The notes beneath the pieces were generated by a model. It worked only from the letters and a program-made list of their open reading frames with translations. It did no database searches and was not told the origin of the DNA. Shown in pieces: positions 1 to 7,067 of a DNA stretch of 7,067 bases (within the stretch, counting starts at the first letter, position 1; every line of letters starts with the position of its first letter). This DNA comes from a virus. Lineage: Duplodnaviria; Heunggongvirae; Uroviricota; Caudoviricetes. Location of the stretch: the IMG/VR virus record IMGVR_UViG_3300029070_000030, one strand, 5' to 3'. A program made the translations under genes and the position numbers.

Positions 1-303
1 GGCGGCCGTCACTGCCGGGTCAGCCGGGGGCAGACTGCCGGTCACGGCAGCCACCTTTGCGGCCGCGTCGGACGGGGAAACACCAAACACCTTTTCAACC
101 AGTTTCAGGCCGTCACCGGCACCACACTGATTGCAGTACCAGGTGCCGCGCCCCTCCCTGTCATCAAAACGGAAGCGGTCACTCCCGCCACAGACCGGAC
201 AGGGCTGATGACGGTTTTTCAGCACCTGAATCCCCAGCGCCGGGAGAATACGCGGCCAGTGGCCGAGCGCATGGCTGACGGTGGCGGTTACGTTCATTTT
301 CAT
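1..303 (-). CDS. alpha: P4-type replication protein alpha (primase-helicase), N-terminal ~101 codons only; gene continues past the window start
   Basis: Not in the ORF track because it is truncated. Hand translation of the minus strand from ATG 303 gives MKMNVTATVSHALGHWPRILPALGIQVLKNRHQPCPVCGGSDRFRFDDREGRGTWYCNQCGAGDGLKLVEKVFGVSPSDAAAKVAAVTGSLPPADPAVTAA with no stop to position 1. AAGGAG lies 9 nt upstream of the ATG (plus 313-318). The CPVC...CNQC spacing is a zinc-ribbon of the kind found at the N-terminus of P4-type primases. It sits just downstream of the orf106-like gene, as in P4. Confidence 0.8.
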   Translation of the reverse strand, partial: MKMNVTATVSHALGHWPRILPALGIQVLKNRHQPCPVCGGSDRFRFDDREGRGTWYCNQCGAGDGLKLVEKVFGVSPSDAAAKVAAVTGSLPPADPAVTAA

Positions 304-317
304 GGTGTTGTTCTCCT

Positions 318-638
318 TCAGTGCAGTACCGGCGCTTTTATGTGACGGGCACAGAGTTCATCCATCACAACCAGCCCGAGAAAGGACAGCGACGGCGCGG
401 CCTTCAGGGGGCCGGATTCCATTAAATCTTCCAGCAGGGCACAGGCTATCTGACGCCCTTTTTCCTCACCGTGCTGGCGCAGATAAAAGCCTTCCAGCTC
501 AGCGGCGATGGCCGCCTCCAGTGACTCAAGGGTGAGATGCGGGTAGCGGTGCTGACGTTCGCACACGGTCAGCCAGGCACAGGCGACAGCGCGACGGTAA
601 AGGGCAGCGCGTAAGACGGGCGGTAAGGGTGTTTTCAT
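318..638 (-). CDS. P4 orf106-like small protein (possibly the Cnr copy-number regulator homologue; that name is from memory)
   Basis: 106-aa ORF on the minus strand; GGGAGG lies 7 nt upstream of ATG 638; position immediately upstream of alpha matches the P4 left operon; size matches P4 orf106. Confidence 0.65.
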
Positions 639-773
639 TTGTTTTCCTCCCTGTGACAGATGACTGCATTCCGTGCCGGTTGCATTAACTGATAAGGCAT
701 ATCTGCGTCTCCTGAAGACGTGCGTATCCCTGCGCGAATACGCACATTTAATTTTTCGGGTGTCGTTTTTTAA

Positions 774-1229
774 TTACAGATAATTGCGGTAACTGTTATC
801 CGGGGTGATTTCCGGGTCAGGCTCCGTGCGGGGAATTTCCCGCCATTCCCGCGCTACCGGTGCTGCCCGGCTGACCGGAACAGTGTCCTGCGGGTAAATA
901 TCCAGATATTTCTCCCGCCATTTCTGTAATTCCGGGTCTCCGGCCATTTCTTTCAGTACCGCATGCCGGTTTACGGGGCTGCGTTTAAACAGGTCAGGAC
1001 GGTCACAGGTAAATTCCCGCAGAAAACGCCCCAGCGGGATGTCTGTGGTGCGCCCGTCGGCGAGGATACGCACAAGGATACTGAATTTACGGCGGTACGG
1101 GTTCCAGACAATGTCCGGGCAGCGGTACGGCATTTCCCACGGAATACCGTCTTCCAGAATGCCGACCACGGCCACATCGGGAAAACCGGCAGAACGGTAA
1201 ATCTCACCGGGCTGGGGAAAATCAAACAT
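774..1229 (-). CDS. P4 orf151-like hypothetical protein
   Basis: 151-aa ORF on the minus strand; its ATG (1229-1227) overlaps the stop of the upstream epsilon-like ORF (ATGTTTGA), suggesting translational coupling; size and position match P4 orf151 between eps and alpha. Confidence 0.65.
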   Translation of the reverse strand: MFDFPQPGEIYRSAGFPDVAVVGILEDGIPWEMPYRCPDIVWNPYRRKFSILVRILADGRTTDIPLGRFLREFTCDRPDLFKRSPVNRHAVLKEMAGDPELQKWREKYLDIYPQDTVPVSRAAPVAREWREIPRTEPDPEITPDNSYRNYL

Positions 1230-1509
1230 GCGTCCTGTCTCCCCGGTCTTTCTGCTGGGCGAGAAAATCGCGGCACAGGCCTTTGGCTTTCAGCTCATTC
1301 AGCACAAAATCAATATCTTCATTCAGGTAGCTGAAAATATGCGGAATGTAGAGCTGATGCAGGCCGGAGAGTTCACGGTGAATCAAATCACCCCCAACAA
1401 ACTGGGATACGGCGCTGGCGCGGTTGAGCTTATGGTAAGCCTCAATGCTGAGGTGTTCACGGGCGTCATGACGCGCTGAGACGGTCTGAGGGGCTTTTTT
1501 ATTACGCAC
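1222..1509 (-). CDS. eps: Epsilon-like protein (helper-prophage derepression factor of P4 family); 95 aa if initiated at GTG 1509
   Basis: C-terminal part of the 175-aa track ORF 1222..1749. GGAGG (minus-strand sense) lies 6 nt upstream of GTG 1509, giving [30 protein letters not shown]...DRTHV (95 aa). Alternative in-frame ATGs are at 1554 and 1590. The full 1749 start is unlikely because that stretch overlaps another long ORF and is Cys/Pro/Leu-rich. Position upstream of orf151 matches P4 eps. Start codon uncertain. Confidence 0.5.
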
Positions 1510-1837
1510 GGGACACCTCCACCACCGGCAGACGGGCAGCAAGGGAGAGCACATAGTCACGGACAAGGGAACGGCGGGCGCTGCGTTCATCACCGGCGAC
1601 GGTGCGAAGCATACAGATACGGGGATGACGGTCTGCGCGACGGACAGCCGCAAACACAAAGACAAATTCAGGGTGTGAAGGGGTAAGGGTCGTAGCCATA
1701 AGGCAACCTCCGATAACAGCGTAAATGACGCTATCGCCGGAGTTTCCACGCTCGATGGCGATAGCCCAGACGGGGGTGGAAATACCGGCGTTATCGGAAA
1801 CCGGCCAGCCCGGAGGCTGCCCCGCCTGAGCTACCAT
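1502..1837 (-). CDS. Hypothetical protein upstream of eps (111 aa from ATG 1837; may extend to ATG 2101, 199 aa)
   Basis: Part of the 214-aa track ORF 1502..2146. The C-terminal 111 codons ([31 protein letters not shown]...LPVVEVSRA) look protein-like, and the stop TAA 1504-1502 abuts the eps GTG. An upstream in-frame ATGATGATG (2101-2093) overlaps the vis stop, which would give 199 aa, but that N-terminal stretch has odd composition and a lower-GC, palindrome-rich template. No recognisable motif. Low confidence. Confidence 0.3.
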
Positions 1838-2097
1838 TGACTCTGCGGTATAATGAGCGGACGCGGGCAGAATGCACGGAGTGCCATTTGCTCGACTGAC
1901 CACACACCACACCATAATCTGGCGCTCTGTGGCGTTGATTGCGACACAAAAAAAGACGCATGGCGCGTCATATGTCGCCGATAACATACTCGGGTTTCCA
2001 CGCCCGGCTGCCGATTTTGCGGCAGCGGAAAAACTATATCCGCAAATGCCGGAAAAAGGCAAGCCAGAAAAAGGGACTTTTTGCAGAACAGGCATCA

Positions 2098-2364
2098 TCA
2101 TGCGTCGTACCCCCGTTTGCGTCCGGCAATGCGCCCGGCCATCCATGCGGTGACTTCAGAGTGCAGCCAGGCTACATTTTTACCGCCAAGACTCACCTGC
2201 GGCGGAAATTCCCCCTTACGGATGAATTCGTAGATGGTCGAGCGTGACAGGCCGCACAGGTGCATCACTTCCGGCAGACGTAAAAAACGCTCCTGCGTGA
2301 TGTCCGGCAGCGGCATCAGTGGCGTCACAGGGGCGGGAGACGGGGAAGAAAAAACAGCTTGCAT
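2098..2364 (-). CDS. vis: AlpA/Vis-family phage DNA-binding regulator (88 aa), first gene of the leftward operon
   Basis: 88-aa [81 protein letters not shown]; the FLRLPEV...GLSRSTIY...G.FP....G...W core is the AlpA/Vis helix-turn-helix signature. GAGGT lies 6 nt upstream of ATG 2364. It is divergent from sid, as in P4-like satellites where alpA is a core gene. Confidence 0.8.
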
Positions 2365-2466
2365 CGGGCTACCTCGTTAATGTCCATACAGCACCGGATA
2401 AGTCCGTCCGGCTTCGGGTAGCGCTTTATTTTGTGAATATTTTCGGCAGACGCAACAGGGGGGATT

Positions 2467-2484
2467 TGTTCCGGCAGTCTTACA
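2467..2484 (-). promoter_or_regulatory. TGT-N12-ACA dyad, candidate Ogr/Delta-type activator site of a leftward late promoter (P_LL-like) upstream of vis
   Basis: TGT (2467-2469), 12 nt, ACA (2482-2484). The centre is ~110 bp upstream of the vis ATG, consistent with a site centred near -55 and a ~55-nt leader. The motif is only 6 fixed bases, so chance occurrence is possible. Confidence 0.4.
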
Positions 2485-2642
2485 ATGGCTGTGTGTTTTT
2501 TGTACATCAGCGCCAGATAGCTTTAAAACGCTCTGGAAGGAGCTGGAAAAAATTATAGTGAAATACAAATTGTTTTTTCTTATTTATTTCAGTGAATTAA
2601 TAAAAATAAAAAGTAATAAACAGCACAAAAAGCCCATCAACG

Positions 2643-2747
2643 GGTGAACAGTGGTGAACAGACGGTGAACAGTCATTACTGCGATTGTTCACCCTTTAAC
2701 TTACTGTATTACTTATCTTTTTTCTTATGGTGAACAGAGGTGAACAG
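2643..2747. repeat. Iteron cluster: five direct copies of GGTGAACAG plus one inverted TGTTCACC; P4 alpha-binding type-I iteron (TGTTCACC), ori/crr-like
   Basis: GGTGAACAG at 2643-2651, 2653-2661, 2664-2672, 2729-2737 and 2739-2747; inverted TGTTCACC at 2686-2693; embedded in an AT-rich tract (2560-2760). The octamer is the reverse complement of the P4 type-I iteron bound by alpha (from memory of the P4 literature). Confidence 0.7.
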
Positions 2748-2825
2748 TAAAATATAAAAAAACAAACAGTAAGCCGGTTTTTCCTGCGACCTTTTCCTGG
2801 CTTGCCGGTCTGAGGATGAGTCTCC

Positions 2826-2843
2826 TGTGTCAGGGCTGGCACA
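2826..2843 (+). promoter_or_regulatory. TGT-N12-ACA dyad, candidate Ogr/Delta-type activator site of the sid late promoter (P_sid-like)
   Basis: TGT (2826-2828), 12 nt, ACA (2841-2843). The centre is ~80 bp upstream of the sid ATG (2916), consistent with a -55 activator site and a short leader. P2/P4 late promoters carry this dyad (established knowledge). Confidence 0.5.
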
Positions 2844-2915
2844 TCTGCAATGCGTCGTGTTGTTGTCCGGTGTACGTCACAATTTTCTTAACCTGAAGTG
2901 ACGAGGAGCCGGAAA

Positions 2916-3650
2916 ATGTCTGACAACACCATCCCTGAATATCTGCAACCCGCGCTGGCACAACTGGAAAAGGCCAGAGCCGCCCATCTTGAGAACGCCC
3001 GCCTGATGGATGAGACCGTCACGGCCATTGAACGGGCAGAGCAGGAAAAAAATGCGCTGGCGCAGGCCGACGGAAACGACGCTGACGACTGGCGCACGGC
3101 CTTTCGTGCAGCCGGTGGTGTCCTGAGCGACGAGCTGAAACAGCGCCACATTGAGCGCGTGGCACGCCGGGAGCTGGTACAGGAATATGACAATCTGGCC
3201 GTGGTGCTGAATTTTGAACGCGAACGCCTGAAAGGGGCGTGTGACAGCACGGCCACCGCCTACCGGAAGGCACATCATCACCTTCTGAGTCTGTATGCAG
3301 AGCATGAGCTGGAACACGCCCTGAATGAAACCTGTGAGGCGCTTGTCCGGGCAATGCATCTGAGCATTCTGGTACAGGAAAATCCGCTCGCCAACACCAC
3401 CGGCCATCAGGGCTACGTCGCACCGGAAAAGGCTGTCATGCAGCAGGTGAAATCATCGCTGGAACAGAAAATAAAACAGATGCAAATCAGCCTCACCGGC
3501 GAGCCGGTTCTCCGGCTGACCGGACTGTCAGCGGCAACACTCCCGCACATGGATTATGAGGTGGCAGGCACACCGGCACAGCGCAAGGTGTGGCAGGACA
3601 AAATAGACCAGCAGGGAGCAGTGCTTAAGGCCAGAGGACTGCTGTCATGA
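2916..3650 (+). CDS. sid: Sid-like capsid size-determination (external scaffold) protein, 244 aa
   Basis: Track ORF 2898..3650; preferred start is ATG 2916 (MSDNTIPEYLQPALAQLEKARAAH...) with AGGAG 8 nt upstream, while GTG 2898 has no SD. Strongly alpha-helical, Ala/Glu/Leu/Gln-rich sequence. The 244-aa length matches P4 Sid, and the order sid-delta-psu is diagnostic. Confidence 0.8.
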   Translation: MSDNTIPEYLQPALAQLEKARAAHLENARLMDETVTAIERAEQEKNALAQADGNDADDWRTAFRAAGGVLSDELKQRHIERVARRELVQEYDNLAVVLNFERERLKGACDSTATAYRKAHHHLLSLYAEHELEHALNETCEALVRAMHLSILVQENPLANTTGHQGYVAPEKAVMQQVKSSLEQKIKQMQISLTGEPVLRLTGLSAATLPHMDYEVAGTPAQRKVWQDKIDQQGAVLKARGLLS

Positions 3651-3892
3651 TGCGCTGCCCTTTCTGTCGTCATTCAGCGCATACTCGCACCAGCCGGTAT
3701 GTGAGTGACAATGTCAAAGAAAGTTATCTGCAGTGCCAGAATATTTACTGTTCGGCGACATTTAAAACGCATGAGTCAATTTGTGCCGTGATTCGTTCTC
3801 CGGTCACGGAGGAAAAACCAGCACCGGCAAGCACAGCACCGGCTGTTGTCCGAAAAGTTAAAGGCTGTTACAGCTCACCATTTAACCATTAA
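3647..3892 (+). CDS. delta: Ogr/Delta-family zinc-finger late transcriptional activator, single-domain form (81 aa)
   Basis: MMRCPFCRHSAHTRTSRYVSDNVKESYLQCQNIYCSATFKTHESI carries the C-x2-C ... C-x4-C zinc-finger spacing and RTSRY/CQN..CSATF motifs typical of P2 Ogr and P4 Delta. Its ATG overlaps the sid stop (ATGA at 3647-3650); GAGGA lies 8 nt upstream. Confidence 0.85.
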   Translation: MMRCPFCRHSAHTRTSRYVSDNVKESYLQCQNIYCSATFKTHESICAVIRSPVTEEKPAPASTAPAVVRKVKGCYSSPFNH

Positions 3893-3906
3893 TCAGGAGA
3901 CGGGGT

Positions 3907-4479
3907 GTGACCACAATGTCATTACAGCAGGCTTTTGAGGTCTGCCAGAATAACAAAGCGGCATGGCTGCAACGCAAAAATGAGCTGGCAGCGGCCGAAC
4001 AGGAATATCTGCGGCTTCTGTCAGGAGAAGGCAGAAACGTCAGCCGCCTGGACGAATTACGCAATATTATCGAAGTCAGAAAATGGCAGGTGAATCAGGC
4101 CGCCGGTCGTTATATTCGTTCGCATGAAGCCGTTCAGCACATCAGCATCCGCGAGCGGCTGAATGATTTTATGCAGCAGCACGGCACAGCACTGGCGGCC
4201 GCACTGGCACCGGAGCTGATGGGCTACAGTGAGCTGACGACCATTGCCCGAAACTGTGCCATACAGCGTGCCACAGATGCCCTGCGTGAAGCCCTCCTGT
4301 CCTGGCTTGCGAAGGGTGAAAAAATTAATTATTCCGCACAGGATAGCGACATTTTAACGACCATCGGATTCAGGCCTGACGCGGCTTCGGTGGATGACAG
4401 CCGTGAAAAATTCACCCCTGCGCAGAACATGATTTTTTCGCGTAAAAGTGCAGAACTGGCATCACGTCAGTCTGTGTAA
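3907..4479 (+). CDS. psu: Psu-like polarity-suppression / capsid-decoration protein, 190 aa
   Basis: 190-aa ORF; GTG 3907 start with AGGAGA 6 nt upstream (the ATG at 3916 is too far from the SD). Third gene of the sid-delta-psu late operon; the length equals P4 Psu. It is followed by a hairpin and then cos. Confidence 0.85.
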   Translation: MTTMSLQQAFEVCQNNKAAWLQRKNELAAAEQEYLRLLSGEGRNVSRLDELRNIIEVRKWQVNQAAGRYIRSHEAVQHISIRERLNDFMQQHGTALAAALAPELMGYSELTTIARNCAIQRATDALREALLSWLAKGEKINYSAQDSDILTTIGFRPDAASVDDSREKFTPAQNMIFSRKSAELASRQSV

Positions 4480-4512
4480 AATTCCCCGAAAATCCGCCTG
4501 TTTTTACTGAAA

Positions 4513-4543
4513 AAAGCCATGCATCGATAAGGTGCATGGCTTT
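4513..4543 (+). terminator. Candidate intrinsic terminator of the late operon downstream of psu
   Basis: Perfect inverted repeat AGCCATGCA (4515-4523) / TGCATGGCT (4533-4541) with a 9-nt loop, extendable by A:T pairs to ~11 bp, followed by TTT and a further TTTT at 4551-4554. The U-tract is interrupted, so efficiency is uncertain. Confidence 0.4.
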
Positions 4544-4643
4544 GCATGCGTTTTCCCGCCTCATTTCCTGCAGATTACGCCGCGCCCGACGCGGCGTGAG
4601 CGTGTCAGTGCAACTGCATTAAAACCGCCCCGCAAAGCGGGCG

Positions 4644-4662
4644 GGCGAGGCGGGGAAAGCAC
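4644..4662. other. cos site: 19-nt P2/P4-type cohesive-end sequence GGCGAGGCGGGGAAAGCAC
   Basis: Exact match at 4644-4662 to the conserved 19-nt cohesive end shared by P2, 186 and P4 (recalled from the literature). It lies between psu and int, where cos sits in P4, and is flanked by GC-rich dyads (4578-4596 and ~4625-4644). Confidence 0.8.
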
Positions 4663-4687
4663 TGCGCGCGAATGGATGATTTTCAAT

Positions 4688-5644
4688 TTAAATGCCAAGC
4701 AATAATTTTTTCTTGAAGTAGCTTTCAAAGCTATCCTTATCACCATTGAATACACCCATCAACTCATCAGAGTTTATTATTATATTCATTATTTCTCTTA
4801 AATAATTATCAAGTTTAATGCTTTCCTCTGGTAGTTTTCCAACTTTAGATGATTTTAAACTGTCACCATGAGTAACTTTAGAGCGAATGTTATAGAATGA
4901 CTTTATTTCATCAAATGTAGTGATAGGATCAAAGTTATATGGTTTTAAGAAAATAGCGACCCGCTCAGAAAGTTTATGAGAAAGTTCAGAGCTATCTGTT
5001 GAGAATAAGCTCTCAAGTGCGCTGCAGTAGTGAGATATTTTCATTGCGGGATCGAAATCTCGCTTTGCTGATCTTATAAAACTCAATGCCCTTCCATAGC
5101 GAGAATATTTTGAATCAACAAAAGAATCAAAAATAGTAGAGTTATTATTATATAGGTGAGTTTGAACTCGATGGTTTATATCTGCCCACTTAGTTAAGTC
5201 ACTCCTGTTAAATTCAACATCAATATGGCGATAACCGCTTGCCATCGTAAATAAACTTAATAGACTATTGTTCGACCATTCAGAATATGCTTTGCGATCA
5301 GTTTTATTGCAATATGCAATTTCGCAAAGCATGCCATTATCCTTGATAAACCAAGAAGTATTTATAAGCATATCTATCCACAAAAGCCAAGTCGTCAATG
5401 CAAAATTGCTTTTTGTAGACGGCTGAAAAAAATCATCTTTAAGATCGGCAAAAATTATGTGATTTGCATTGTATAAATGTTCATATTCAATGATACCAGT
5501 AAAAGGCTTAATATCTTTGTTAATTATTTTTCTAATTTTTGCCCTATCTCTTATTAGAGTAACTCCGGGAAGGAGGTCAAAATCATCGAAATTATCCCCT
5601 ATAACATTCATAAATCTTAATGTTGTGTAGAATTTAAAGTGCAT
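4688..5644 (-). CDS. Hypothetical protein, 318 aa, AT-rich hotspot cargo; function unknown (candidate anti-phage defence / abortive-infection protein)
   Basis: 318-aa ORF with no internal stops in strongly AT-rich DNA that contrasts sharply with the GC-rich P4 backbone. GGAG lies 7 nt upstream of ATG 5644, and the start overlaps the last codons of int. Located between cos and int, the variable hotspot of P4-like satellites. I recognise no family; the only motif noted is a possible Rx4H (R254...H259, NIRSKVTHGD), which is weak. Confidence 0.8.
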   Translation of the reverse strand: MHFKFYTTLRFMNVIGDNFDDFDLLPGVTLIRDRAKIRKIINKDIKPFTGIIEYEHLYNANHIIFADLKDDFFQPSTKSNFALTTWLLWIDMLINTSWFIKDNGMLCEIAYCNKTDRKAYSEWSNNSLLSLFTMASGYRHIDVEFNRSDLTKWADINHRVQTHLYNNNSTIFDSFVDSKYSRYGRALSFIRSAKRDFDPAMKISHYCSALESLFSTDSSELSHKLSERVAIFLKPYNFDPITTFDEIKSFYNIRSKVTHGDSLKSSKVGKLPEESIKLDNYLREIMNIIINSDELMGVFNGDKDSFESYFKKKLLLGI

Positions 5645-6830
5645 TATATATCTCCATATTCATTTTCGGATATAATCTATCACTATACCATTGCATCATT
5701 TCTTTCCTTTTCTCTAAATATTGTGCATGGTTATATGTGCCTCGAATTGTGTTTTTATCTACATGAGCTAATTGCATTTCAATCCATACACTATTGAATC
5801 CTTTTTCATGCAAAATGGTTGACATGGTATGCCTGAACCCATGACCTGTTGCACGACCTTTGTAGCCTAATAACTCAATCACCTGTGTCACACTTTCTTT
5901 AGATATAGGTTTACTACGATTATTTCTACCTATAAAAATGTAGGGATAATGGCCGCTAATAGGCTTGAGCTGTTTAAAAAGGGCAATCACCTGAGTAGAT
6001 AGAGGTACAATATGAGGTCTGCGCATTTTCATCCTTTCAGCTGGAATCTCCCATATTCCTTTCTCAAGGTCAACTTCATCCCACGTGGCAAAGCGCATTT
6101 CCTGAGTTCTTACGCCAGTTAACATGACAATTTTTGTCGCATTTTTAGTGATGATGCTTCCGGTATACGCTTCAAGATCTTGAATAAAATAAGGCAATTC
6201 TTCGGCAGATAAAAATGGGTGGTGTTTTTGCTTAGGAACGGCCAGAGCGATAGCTAAATCAGGTGCTGGATTGTATTCAGCGCGGCCAGTGATGATCGCG
6301 TAGCGAAACACCTCTCCGCATCGTTGACGTACTTTTCTGGTTTTCTCCAACGCTCCACGTTTTTCTATGCGTTTAAGAACTTCAAGCAGTTCTAGGGGTT
6401 TAATTTCAGCTATTGGCCGTTTACCAATGAAAGGAAAAACATCCTGTTCAAATGTTTTAATAATTTCTTCGCGATAAGCTAAAGTCCAGCGATCTGCTTT
6501 TGTTGCATGCCATTCTCTGCTAACGGCCTCAAAAGAGTTTTCAGTTGATAATTTCTGAGCAATTTTCTGAGCCTTACGTTCTTCTACTGGATCAATGCCG
6601 TTTGCAACCTGTTTACGTGCCGTATCGCGTTTCTCACGTGCTTCCGCGAGGCTTACAAGATCGTAACTACCAAATGACATTAACCGCGCTTTACCGGCAA
6701 AACGAAAGCGGAATCGCCATCCCTTTGAGCCGTCTGGATTGATGAGTAATGACAAGCCTTGCCCATCATTCATTGTATATGGTTTGTCTTGTGGTTTTGC
6801 GCGTTTGATTTGTATATCGGTTAGAGCCAT
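5634..6830 (-). CDS. int: P4-type tyrosine integrase (site-specific recombinase), selC-specific
   Basis: 398-aa ORF beginning MALTDIQIKRAKPQDKPYTMNDGQGLSLLINPDGSKGWRFRFRF, the characteristic N-terminal arm-binding domain of P4-family integrases. C-terminal catalytic region has HGFRHT...LAHVDKNTIRGTYNHAQY (H-x-x-R ... H ... Y). It lies directly downstream of, and co-oriented with, a tRNA gene 3' end. Confidence 0.9.
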   Translation of the reverse strand: MALTDIQIKRAKPQDKPYTMNDGQGLSLLINPDGSKGWRFRFRFAGKARLMSFGSYDLVSLAEAREKRDTARKQVANGIDPVEERKAQKIAQKLSTENSFEAVSREWHATKADRWTLAYREEIIKTFEQDVFPFIGKRPIAEIKPLELLEVLKRIEKRGALEKTRKVRQRCGEVFRYAIITGRAEYNPAPDLAIALAVPKQKHHPFLSAEELPYFIQDLEAYTGSIITKNATKIVMLTGVRTQEMRFATWDEVDLEKGIWEIPAERMKMRRPHIVPLSTQVIALFKQLKPISGHYPYIFIGRNNRSKPISKESVTQVIELLGYKGRATGHGFRHTMSTILHEKGFNSVWIEMQLAHVDKNTIRGTYNHAQYLEKRKEMMQWYSDRLYPKMNMEIYNAL

Positions 6831-6992: not shown

Positions 6993-7067
6993 TGGCGGAA
7001 GATCACAGGAGTCGAACCTGCCCGGGACCGCTGGCGGCCCCAACTGGATTTGAAGTCCAGCCGCCTC
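6993..7067 (-). tRNA. selC: tRNA-Sec (selC), 3' 75 nt including CCA; 5' ~20 nt lie beyond the window end
   Basis: Reverse complement of 6993-7067 reads GAGGCGGCTGGACTTCAAATCCAGTTGGGGCCGCCAGCGGTCCCGGGCAGGTTCGACTCCTGTGATCTTCCGCCA, which matches my recollection of positions 21-95 of E. coli selC (anticodon loop CTTCAAATC with UCA, long variable arm, T-arm GGTTCGACTCC, 3' CCA). Confidence 0.9.

What the first reader, a model, noticed from the sequence alone, without database searches (positions are those of the whole stretch)
3647..3892. Delta is the short single-finger (Ogr-like) form, not the fused double form of P4
The activator here is 81 aa with one C-x2-C...C-x4-C unit, whereas my recollection is that P4 Delta is a tandem duplication of about twice that length. 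This places the element nearer the phiR73/Ogr-like lineage and may affect which helper promoters it activates.
Basis: partly seen in the sequence, partly recalled or inferred. Interest (0 to 1): 0.35.

Follow-up and report, generated by a model that had tools for sequence, protein, structure and literature searches.

The report
Ordinary one-finger Delta in P4-like satellite
The gene is an intact, common 81-residue single-zinc-finger version of the late-gene activator Delta in a P4-like satellite prophage at the selC tRNA gene; it is a known kind of protein, not a broken copy of P4's double-length Delta.

Summary
Window 3647-3892 (+) encodes an 81-aa protein with one C-x2-C-x22-C-x4-C unit and one Pfam Ogr_Delta domain (E 1.4e-18). 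P4 Delta is 166 aa with two such domains.

It is not a truncated double Delta:
- psu starts 14 nt after the stop codon.
- Both halves of P4 Delta match only the one finger.
- The 81-aa length and a C-terminal KGCYSSPFxH tail are conserved under purifying selection in at least eight enterobacterial genera.

The rest of the element is about 96% identical to P4. Only a ~295-bp cassette (delta plus the first ~13 psu codons), the cargo gene and the integrase differ. The element abuts tRNA-Sec (selC) and its integrase is 39% identical to P4 Int, which matches what I recall of phiR73. I could not obtain phiR73's delta sequence to compare directly.

Delta type is a freely reassorting module. The identical protein occurs in a satellite at tRNA-Thr, and a natural P4/short hybrid exists. 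The Psid promoter and its two TGT-N12-ACA dyads are 100% identical to P4, so nothing here supports a changed promoter range.

The exact protein occurs on at least 1000 public contigs and the cassette in 155 of 5426 complete E. coli genomes. One finger is the family default. This is already known and of low interest.

The parts
3647..3892 (+). delta gene: 81-aa single-domain Ogr/Delta-family late-gene activator. Its ATG overlaps the sid stop codon (ATGA).
   Evidence: ORF. Pfam Ogr_Delta E 1.4e-18, one stretch. PHROG 603 'transcriptional regulator'. RefSeq WP_000984201.1 'ogr/Delta-like zinc finger family protein'.
3653..3781 (+). Zinc-finger (Ogr_Delta) domain, residues 3-45, with C4, C7, C30 and C35.
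   Evidence: Pfam match at residues 3-45. All four Cys are invariant in the alignment with P2 Ogr and both halves of P4 Delta.
3854..3889 (+). Conserved C-terminal tail, residues 70-81 (KVKGCYSSPFNH). It is specific to the short satellite Deltas.
   Evidence: K72, G73, C74, Y75, S77, P78 and F79 are invariant in 14 homologues. pN/pS is 0.14-0.17 at pS 0.73-0.87. The tail is absent from P2 Ogr and P4 Delta.
3652..3945 (+). Cassette that differs from P4: delta, a 14-nt spacer and the first ~13 psu codons. It replaces about 608 bp of P4 (roughly 10319-10926).
   Evidence: The pairwise alignment shows about 99% identity up to the delta ATGAT, divergence across the cassette, and identity again from CAGAATAAC. 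blastn HSPs are. E. coli hits with the P4-type cassette span 1896 bp against 1582 bp here.
2916..3650 (+). sid (capsid-size scaffold), first gene of the sid-delta-psu operon. The ATG at 2916 gives 244 aa as in P4; the ORF listing extends the ORF to a GTG at 2898.
3907..4479 (+). psu (polarity suppression protein). The likely start is GTG 3907, behind the Shine-Dalgarno AGGAG at 3895-3899. PGAP calls ATG 3916.
   Evidence: Pfam Psu E 1.7e-88. Tatumella has an ATG and other genera a GTG at the homologous position. PGAP annotation.
2826..2881 (+). Psid late promoter region with two TGT-N12-ACA dyads (2826-2843 and 2864-2881). These are the presumed Delta/Ogr binding sites.
   Evidence: Pattern search. 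The region is 100% identical to P4.
2467..2484 (.). TGT-N12-ACA dyad in the leftward late promoter (PLL) region.
   Evidence: It differs from P4 at two spacer positions only.
5634..6830 (-). Tyrosine integrase of the element, 39% identical to P4 Int.
   Evidence: Pfam. BLASTP against P4 Int.
6997..7067 (-). 3' part of tRNA-Sec (selC), cut off by the window end. This is the integration site.
   Evidence: Rfam RF01852, 51.5 bits. A full tRNA-Sec is annotated in E. coli WY517-2.

Best explanation
This is an intact, functional single-domain member of the Ogr/Delta family of zinc-binding late-gene activators. It is encoded by a P4-like satellite prophage integrated at selC. It is the middle gene of the sid-delta-psu late operon and is translationally coupled to sid through an ATGA overlap.

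Inferred mechanism, from what is established for P2 Ogr, 186 B and P4 Delta: the Cys4 finger binds one zinc ion. Two monomers occupy the TGT-N12-ACA dyad upstream of the helper's late promoters and of the satellite's own Psid and PLL promoters. They recruit RNA polymerase through its alpha subunit. This switches on helper capsid, tail and lysis genes and feeds back positively on sid-delta-psu. P4 supplies the two fingers in one 166-aa chain; this protein supplies them as two separate 81-aa chains.

The gene sits on a ~295-bp cassette that recombination has exchanged for the P4-type cassette in an otherwise ~96% P4-identical backbone.

Shown here: the ORF, domain, motif, conservation, selection, cassette boundaries, identical cis sites, context and prevalence. 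Inferred: zinc binding, dimerisation, DNA site and polymerase contact.
For: - One Ogr_Delta domain, E 1.4e-18, with C-x2-C-x22-C-x4-C spacing. That spacing is the Ogr motif as cited in PMC3931495.
- 46-47% identical to P2 Ogr, 51% to P4 Delta finger 1 and 38% to finger 2.
- Homologues of 79-88 aa occur in Salmonella, Citrobacter, Enterobacter, Kluyvera, Klebsiella, Raoultella, Tatumella and Mangrovibacter. In four species representatives they lie directly upstream of psu.
- pN/pS is 0.25-0.35 overall and 0.14-0.17 in the tail.
- No second-finger remnant anywhere in the window.
- Cassette boundaries are sharp.
- Psid dyads are 100% identical to P4.
- The exact protein is on at least 1000 contigs, and the cassette is in 155 of 5426 complete E. 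coli genomes.
- phiR73 delta is used experimentally as a strong activator of the P2 PF promoter (bioRxiv 10.1101/2022.11.09.515794).
Against: - No experiment on this particular protein is available.
- The AlphaFold model has low confidence (pLDDT 54), and sequence search finds no solved structure of the family. The fold and any dimer interface are therefore unverified.
- Identity with the characterised phiR73 delta could not be checked because its sequence was not obtainable.
- The function of the conserved C-terminal tail is unknown.
Confidence: 0.9

Rival explanations
1. It is a truncated pseudogene: the N-terminal remnant of a P4-type two-finger Delta after a deletion or frameshift.
For: It sits exactly where P4 has a 166-aa gene, in a backbone about 96% identical to P4. 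Its first 45 residues align with P4 finger 1.
Against: - Residues 46-81 are unrelated to the P4 linker. They are conserved across genera with pN/pS 0.14-0.37.
- psu begins 14 nt after the stop, behind its own Shine-Dalgarno sequence.
- tblastn with the P4 Delta linker and second finger finds only the single finger at 3656-3823; all other hits have E >= 0.2.
- Finger DNA identity to P4 is only about 60%, against 99% in the flanks. It is a different allele, not a decayed copy.
- The 81-aa length recurs next to psu genes only 61-65% identical to this one.
Confidence: 0.02
2. The short allele is functionally distinct from P4 Delta. Its different promoter preference or helper range, or a tail-specific partner, would make the cassette swap adaptive: a specificity switch in the conflict between satellite and helper.
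For: - Two very different alleles persist in near-identical backbones, in 155 and 932 genomes.
- The cassette boundaries are sharp, and a hybrid allele, P0007, exists.
- The tail is satellite-specific and strongly constrained.
- From my memory of Julien and Calendar 1996, family members differ quantitatively in promoter preference.
Against: - Psid with both dyads is 100% identical in the two backgrounds, and the PLL dyad arms are kept.
- Both forms belong to one family that recognises the same dyad.
- No data here link the allele to the helper type.
Confidence: 0.25
3. It is the Ogr-type activator of a P2-like helper prophage rather than a satellite Delta.
For: Its best matches in the phage collection are Ogr/B-type activators of P2-like phages, at 54-57% identity over residues 1-60.
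Against: - It lies between sid and psu in a P4-like element with AlpA, epsilon, CI RNA, cos and an integrase.
- The window contains no P2 structural genes.
- The tail motif is absent from Ogr.
Confidence: 0.01

Closest known systems
phiR73 delta (retronphage phiR73, a P4-like satellite at selC)
   Same: From memory, phiR73 delta is a single-domain satellite Delta of about Ogr size. The element here shares phiR73's reported features: it is P4-like over most of its length, integrated at selC, and has an integrase about 40% identical to P4 Int (39% here).
   Different: Direct sequence identity was not tested. M64113 is not in the collections and the primary papers are not held. The window contains no retron. 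In the best-matching genome the reverse transcriptase beyond alpha is a TIR-domain fusion, not the 316-aa Ec73 RT as I recall it.
P4 Delta (NP_042043.1, 166 aa)
   Same: Same position between sid and psu, the same ATGA coupling to sid, the same Psid and PLL cis sites, and the same Pfam family. Finger 1 is 51% identical and shares the NIYCSATF motif.
   Different: P4 Delta has two Ogr_Delta domains in one chain and this protein has one. The linker and second finger of P4 have no counterpart here, and the KGCYSSPFxH tail here has no counterpart in P4. P4 has a 73-nt delta-psu spacer; here it is 14 nt.
P2 Ogr / 186 B / PSP3 Pag (helper-phage late activators, about 72 aa)
   Same: Single Cys4 domain with identical C-x2-C-x22-C-x4-C spacing, and similar size. 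It is 46-47% identical to Ogr overall and 55% to 186 B over residues 1-60.
   Different: This protein is encoded by a satellite, not a helper. The C-terminal 30 residues differ: a Pro/Ala-rich linker plus the KGCYSSPFxH tail. Ogr Tyr42, the rpoA109-suppressor position as I recall it, is His42 here.

Membership tests
Ogr/Delta zinc-finger late activators (Pfam PF04606) | Match to the family profile above the curated threshold | tested here: met
   67 bits against a cut-off of 26.3, E 1.4e-18, residues 3-45.
Ogr/Delta zinc-finger late activators (Pfam PF04606) | Cys4 motif C-x2-C-x22-C-x4-C | tested here: met
   C4, C7, C30 and C35. Motif as cited in PMC3931495.
Ogr/Delta zinc-finger late activators (Pfam PF04606) | Binds one zinc ion per finger | not testable with these tools
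   Needs metal analysis of the purified protein.
Ogr/Delta zinc-finger late activators (Pfam PF04606) | Activates sigma-70 late promoters that carry a TGT-N12-ACA dyad, through the RNA polymerase alpha subunit | not testable with these tools
   Only the cis sites can be seen. Dyads lie at 2826-2843, 2864-2881 and 2467-2484, and the Psid ones are identical to P4.
P4-type fused double Delta | Two Ogr_Delta domains in one chain of about 166 aa | tested here: not met
   One domain in 81 aa, against two stretches in P4 Delta. No second-finger remnant.
[quoted passage not shown] | Co-located core genes in P4 order | tested here: met
   int, psu, delta, sid and AlpA by Pfam. epsilon ('derepression protein') and alpha come from RefSeq annotation of a 99.7% identical locus. 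Window 1-3769 and 3922-4672 are about 96% identical to P4.
phiR73-type retronphage | Integration into selC (tRNA-Sec) | tested here: met
   Rfam tRNA-Sec at 6997-7067 (-), next to int. A full tRNA-Sec is annotated in L010. That phiR73 integrates at selC is from memory of Sun et al. 1991 and Inouye et al. 1991.
phiR73-type retronphage | Carries retron Ec73 | tested here: inconclusive
   There is no retron in the window. The best-matching genome has a different, TIR-domain reverse transcriptase beyond alpha.
phiR73-type retronphage | delta identical or nearly identical to phiR73 delta | not testable with these tools
   The phiR73 sequence is not in any collection. No phiR73 label appears among the cluster names.

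The most novel reading that the evidence does not exclude
The delta locus is a swappable specificity cassette. One-finger and two-finger alleles are exchanged by recombination between otherwise ~96-99% identical P4 backbones. Breakpoints lie at the sid/delta overlap, inside psu codon ~14, and in the hybrid P0007 inside the finger at NIYCSATF. On this reading the allele, together with the satellite-specific KGCYSSPFxH tail, tunes which helper phages or promoters the satellite can exploit.
Probability: 0.2. Interest if true: 0.4.

Novelty: already known. Interest (0 to 1): 0.12.

Why it matters
It matters little beyond correct annotation. The gene should be called an intact single-domain Delta, not a pseudogene, and the element a P4-like satellite at selC.

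Two modest points may be useful to people who work on satellites. First, delta type reassorts independently of integrase and cargo, so it is not a lineage marker. Second, the short satellite Deltas carry a strongly constrained C-terminal tail that helper Ogr proteins lack. That tail is an obvious target for mutagenesis.

Tried and rejected
- phiR73 delta comparison: M64113 is not in the phage collection. Julien and Calendar 1995 and 1996, the Lindqvist review and Pountney 1997 are not held. Five literature searches found no text on Delta domain number. The one preprint that uses phiR73 delta has no supplement held. Cluster member names carry no phiR73 label.
- Structure: the AlphaFold2 model from a 14-sequence alignment reached only pLDDT 54 and pTM 0.27, so I ran no fold search. 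The PDB sequence search gave only NrdR at E 0.13.
- Species survey: the Psu-seeded scan of genome contigs returned only six loci.
- Terminator idea: I looked for a terminator or promoter in P4's longer delta-psu spacer that the short cassette might lack. Neither element has a + strand signal there.
- Zinc-mediated dimerisation by tail residues C74 and H81: I dropped this idea because H81 is Tyr in the P0019 cluster.
- H120 as a possible phiR73: it carries the long Delta and sits at another site.

Full report
**1. The observation**

The + strand ORF at 3647-3892 exists as described. It encodes 81 aa with a single Cys4 unit, C4-x2-C7-x22-C30-x4-C35. Pfam finds one Ogr_Delta domain at residues 3-45, at 67 bits against a gathering score of 26.3 and E 1.4e-18. 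PHROGs places it in phrog_603, 'transcriptional regulator'.

In NC_001609 the delta gene is 10314-10814 and encodes 166 aa. Pfam finds two Ogr_Delta stretches in it, against one each in P2 Ogr and the window protein.

**2. It is not a truncated double Delta**

I looked for it and found none.
- The stop codon is followed by a 14-nt spacer containing AGGAG, and then psu.
- tblastn with whole P4 Delta, with its linker plus finger 2, and with finger 2 alone hits only the single finger at 3647-3823. Everything else in the window has E >= 0.2.
- The part after the finger is not junk. Homologues of 79-88 aa occur in Salmonella, Citrobacter, Enterobacter, Kluyvera, Klebsiella aerogenes, Raoultella, Tatumella, Mangrovibacter and others. 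They share an invariant K-G-C-Y-x-S-P-F near the C-terminus.
- In four species-level genomes the 81-aa gene lies directly upstream of a psu that is only 61-65% identical to the window's.
- Codon comparison with those four genes gives pN/pS of 0.25-0.35 for the whole gene. For tail residues 70-81 it is 0.14-0.17, with synonymous sites nearly saturated at pS 0.73-0.87. The constraint is therefore on the protein, not on the DNA.

**3. What surrounds it**

The window is a P4-like satellite prophage. Window 1-3769 matches P4 6667-10436 at 95.9%, 3922-4643 matches P4 10903-11624 at 96.3%, and 4644-4672 matches the P4 left end (cos). The recognisable parts are:
- the 5' end of alpha, then orf106 (DUF5375) and orf151;
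- epsilon and the CI-RNA immunity region (Rfam C4 antisense RNA, isrK and c4-a1b1);
- AlpA/Vis, the ori repeats and Psid;
- sid, delta, psu and cos;
- a low-GC cargo gene and a tyrosine integrase.

The window ends inside tRNA-Sec (Rfam, 6997-7067, minus strand). A genome that is 99.7% identical shows the complete selC gene next to the integrase. The integrase is 39% identical to P4 Int.

As I recall the abstract of Sun et al. 1991, phiR73 is P4-like over most of its length, sits in selC, and has an integrase about 40% identical to P4's. On those criteria the element is phiR73-like. I could not verify this against the paper or the sequence.

**4. The delta cassette**

Aligned with P4, sid is about 99% identical up to the shared ATGAT at the delta start. 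Identity then falls to roughly 60% through the finger, apart from a 24-nt island that encodes NIYCSATF, and disappears after it. It returns at CAGAATAAC, about 13 codons into psu. About 295 bp here therefore replace about 608 bp in P4.

The first psu codons in the window (MTTMSLQQ) resemble those of the diverged satellites that carry short Deltas (MTTLTLQQ), not those of P4 (MESTALQQ). The GTG at 3907 aligns with an ATG in Tatumella. So the cassette came from, or is shared with, the short-Delta satellites.

Among 5426 complete E. coli genomes, 155 carry this cassette at 95% identity or more and 932 carry the P4-type cassette. Most sid-psu hits span 1896 bp rather than 1582 bp for that reason.

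**5. Delta type is a module, not a lineage marker**

- The identical protein (WP_000984201.1) sits in a P4-like satellite at tRNA-Thr near proA, with a different integrase and cargo.
- Another copy lies next to a Hachiman-like cargo.
- An element with the long Delta carries a retron in the psu-int hotspot at yet another site.
- Only 15 genomes have the window's exact sid-delta-psu-HEPN-int combination.
- A natural hybrid, P0007, has residues 1-39 identical to P4 finger 1 and residues 40-81 of the short form. This shows recombination inside the gene at the shared motif.

**6. One finger is the default**

A search of 1.84 billion cluster representatives returned 161 relatives. The best 150 have a median length of 82.5 aa, and 120 of them have exactly one Cys4 unit. 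Only the P4 cluster and two or three others look two-unit or long. The exact window protein occurs on at least 1000 contigs. In addition, the two halves of P4 Delta are only about 17% identical to each other, and the window protein scores closer to P2 Ogr than either half does. P4's fused form is the derived exception.

**7. How it most likely works**

Shown here:
- the gene is the middle member of sid-delta-psu and is coupled to sid by an ATGA overlap;
- the Psid region with two TGT-N12-ACA dyads (2826-2843 and 2864-2881) is 100% identical to P4;
- the dyad in the PLL region (2467-2484) differs only at two spacer bases.

Inferred, from established knowledge of Ogr, 186 B and P4 Delta:
- the finger binds zinc;
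- two monomers occupy the dyad near -55;
- they contact the RNA polymerase alpha subunit;
- they activate the helper's late operons and the satellite's own late promoters.

A preprint uses phiR73 delta as the strongest of three activators of the P2 PF promoter (10.1101/2022.11.09.515794). Quantitative differences remain possible.

**8. What could not be done**

- The AlphaFold model was poor (pLDDT 54), and sequence search finds no solved structure of the family. The fold, the dimer interface and the role of the tail are open.
- phiR73's delta sequence was unobtainable.

**9. Verdict**

The phiR73 affinity is plausible for the element but not diagnostic from delta alone. The specificity idea is unsupported. 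This is a very common, already annotated protein of a known kind, and its interest is low.

Noticed in passing
window 4688-5644 (-): A 318-aa, low-GC (about 33%) ORF lies in the psu-cos-int hotspot and overlaps the integrase start by 11 nt. PGAP calls it 'HEPN domain-containing protein'. It has no Pfam or PADLOC hit and only a weak match to phrog_28161. It is a candidate anti-phage cargo gene of unknown type. Only 15 of 5426 genomes have this cargo together with this sid-delta-psu and integrase.
   Followed up: partly
protein P0007 (E. coli); corresponds to window ~3740-3765: A natural hybrid Delta. Residues 1-39 are identical to P4 Delta finger 1 and residues 40-81 are the short-form C-terminus. 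The junction is at the shared NIYCSATF motif, a 24-nt island of DNA identity.
   Followed up: partly
window 3854-3889 (+): The short satellite Deltas share a C-terminal motif, (V/I)KGCY(S/H/N)SPFxH, under strong purifying selection. It is absent from P2 Ogr and P4 Delta and its function is unknown.
   Followed up: partly
window 3895-3918 (+): The psu start is probably GTG 3907, 7 nt after AGGAG; Tatumella has an ATG at the homologous position. This gives 190 aa as in P4. RefSeq annotates ATG 3916, giving 187 aa.
   Followed up: partly
window 6997-7067 (-): The 3' 70 nt of tRNA-Sec (selC), cut by the window end. ARAGORN missed it because it is truncated, but Rfam found it.
   Followed up: yes
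window 1754-2039 (-): P4-type RNA immunity region: C4 antisense RNA (CI RNA) at 1754-1841, isrK at 1949-2026 and c4-a1b1 target repeats at 1987-2039.
   Followed up: no
L010 252-1883 (E. coli WY517-2, outside the window): In the 99.7% identical element, a 'TIR domain-containing anti-phage reverse transcriptase' and a degraded wHTH gene lie beyond alpha. This would be a second cargo site carrying a retron-like system, reminiscent of phiR73.
   Followed up: no
L011 6270-9419 (E. coli PF9285); L013 5484-7840 (E. coli F8704-2): In PF9285, psu is split by ISEc12 and the hotspot carries a HamA-like protein plus a DEAD/DEAH helicase. In F8704-2, a long-Delta satellite carries a retron St85-family RT in the hotspot.
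   Followed up: no
proteins P0171 (194 aa), P0173 (131 aa), P0200 (171 aa): A few long representatives of the Ogr/Delta family that are not close to P4 Delta. P0171 shows two finger units and P0173 matches the Cys4 pattern twice. P0200 gave two matched stretches, but only one finger is evident in its sequence. P0171 may be an independent fusion.
   Followed up: no
L001 10314-10814 (P4 delta): The two finger domains of P4 Delta are only about 17% identical to each other (7 of 41 aligned residues). Finger 1 is much closer to the short Delta and to Ogr than finger 2 is.
   Followed up: no
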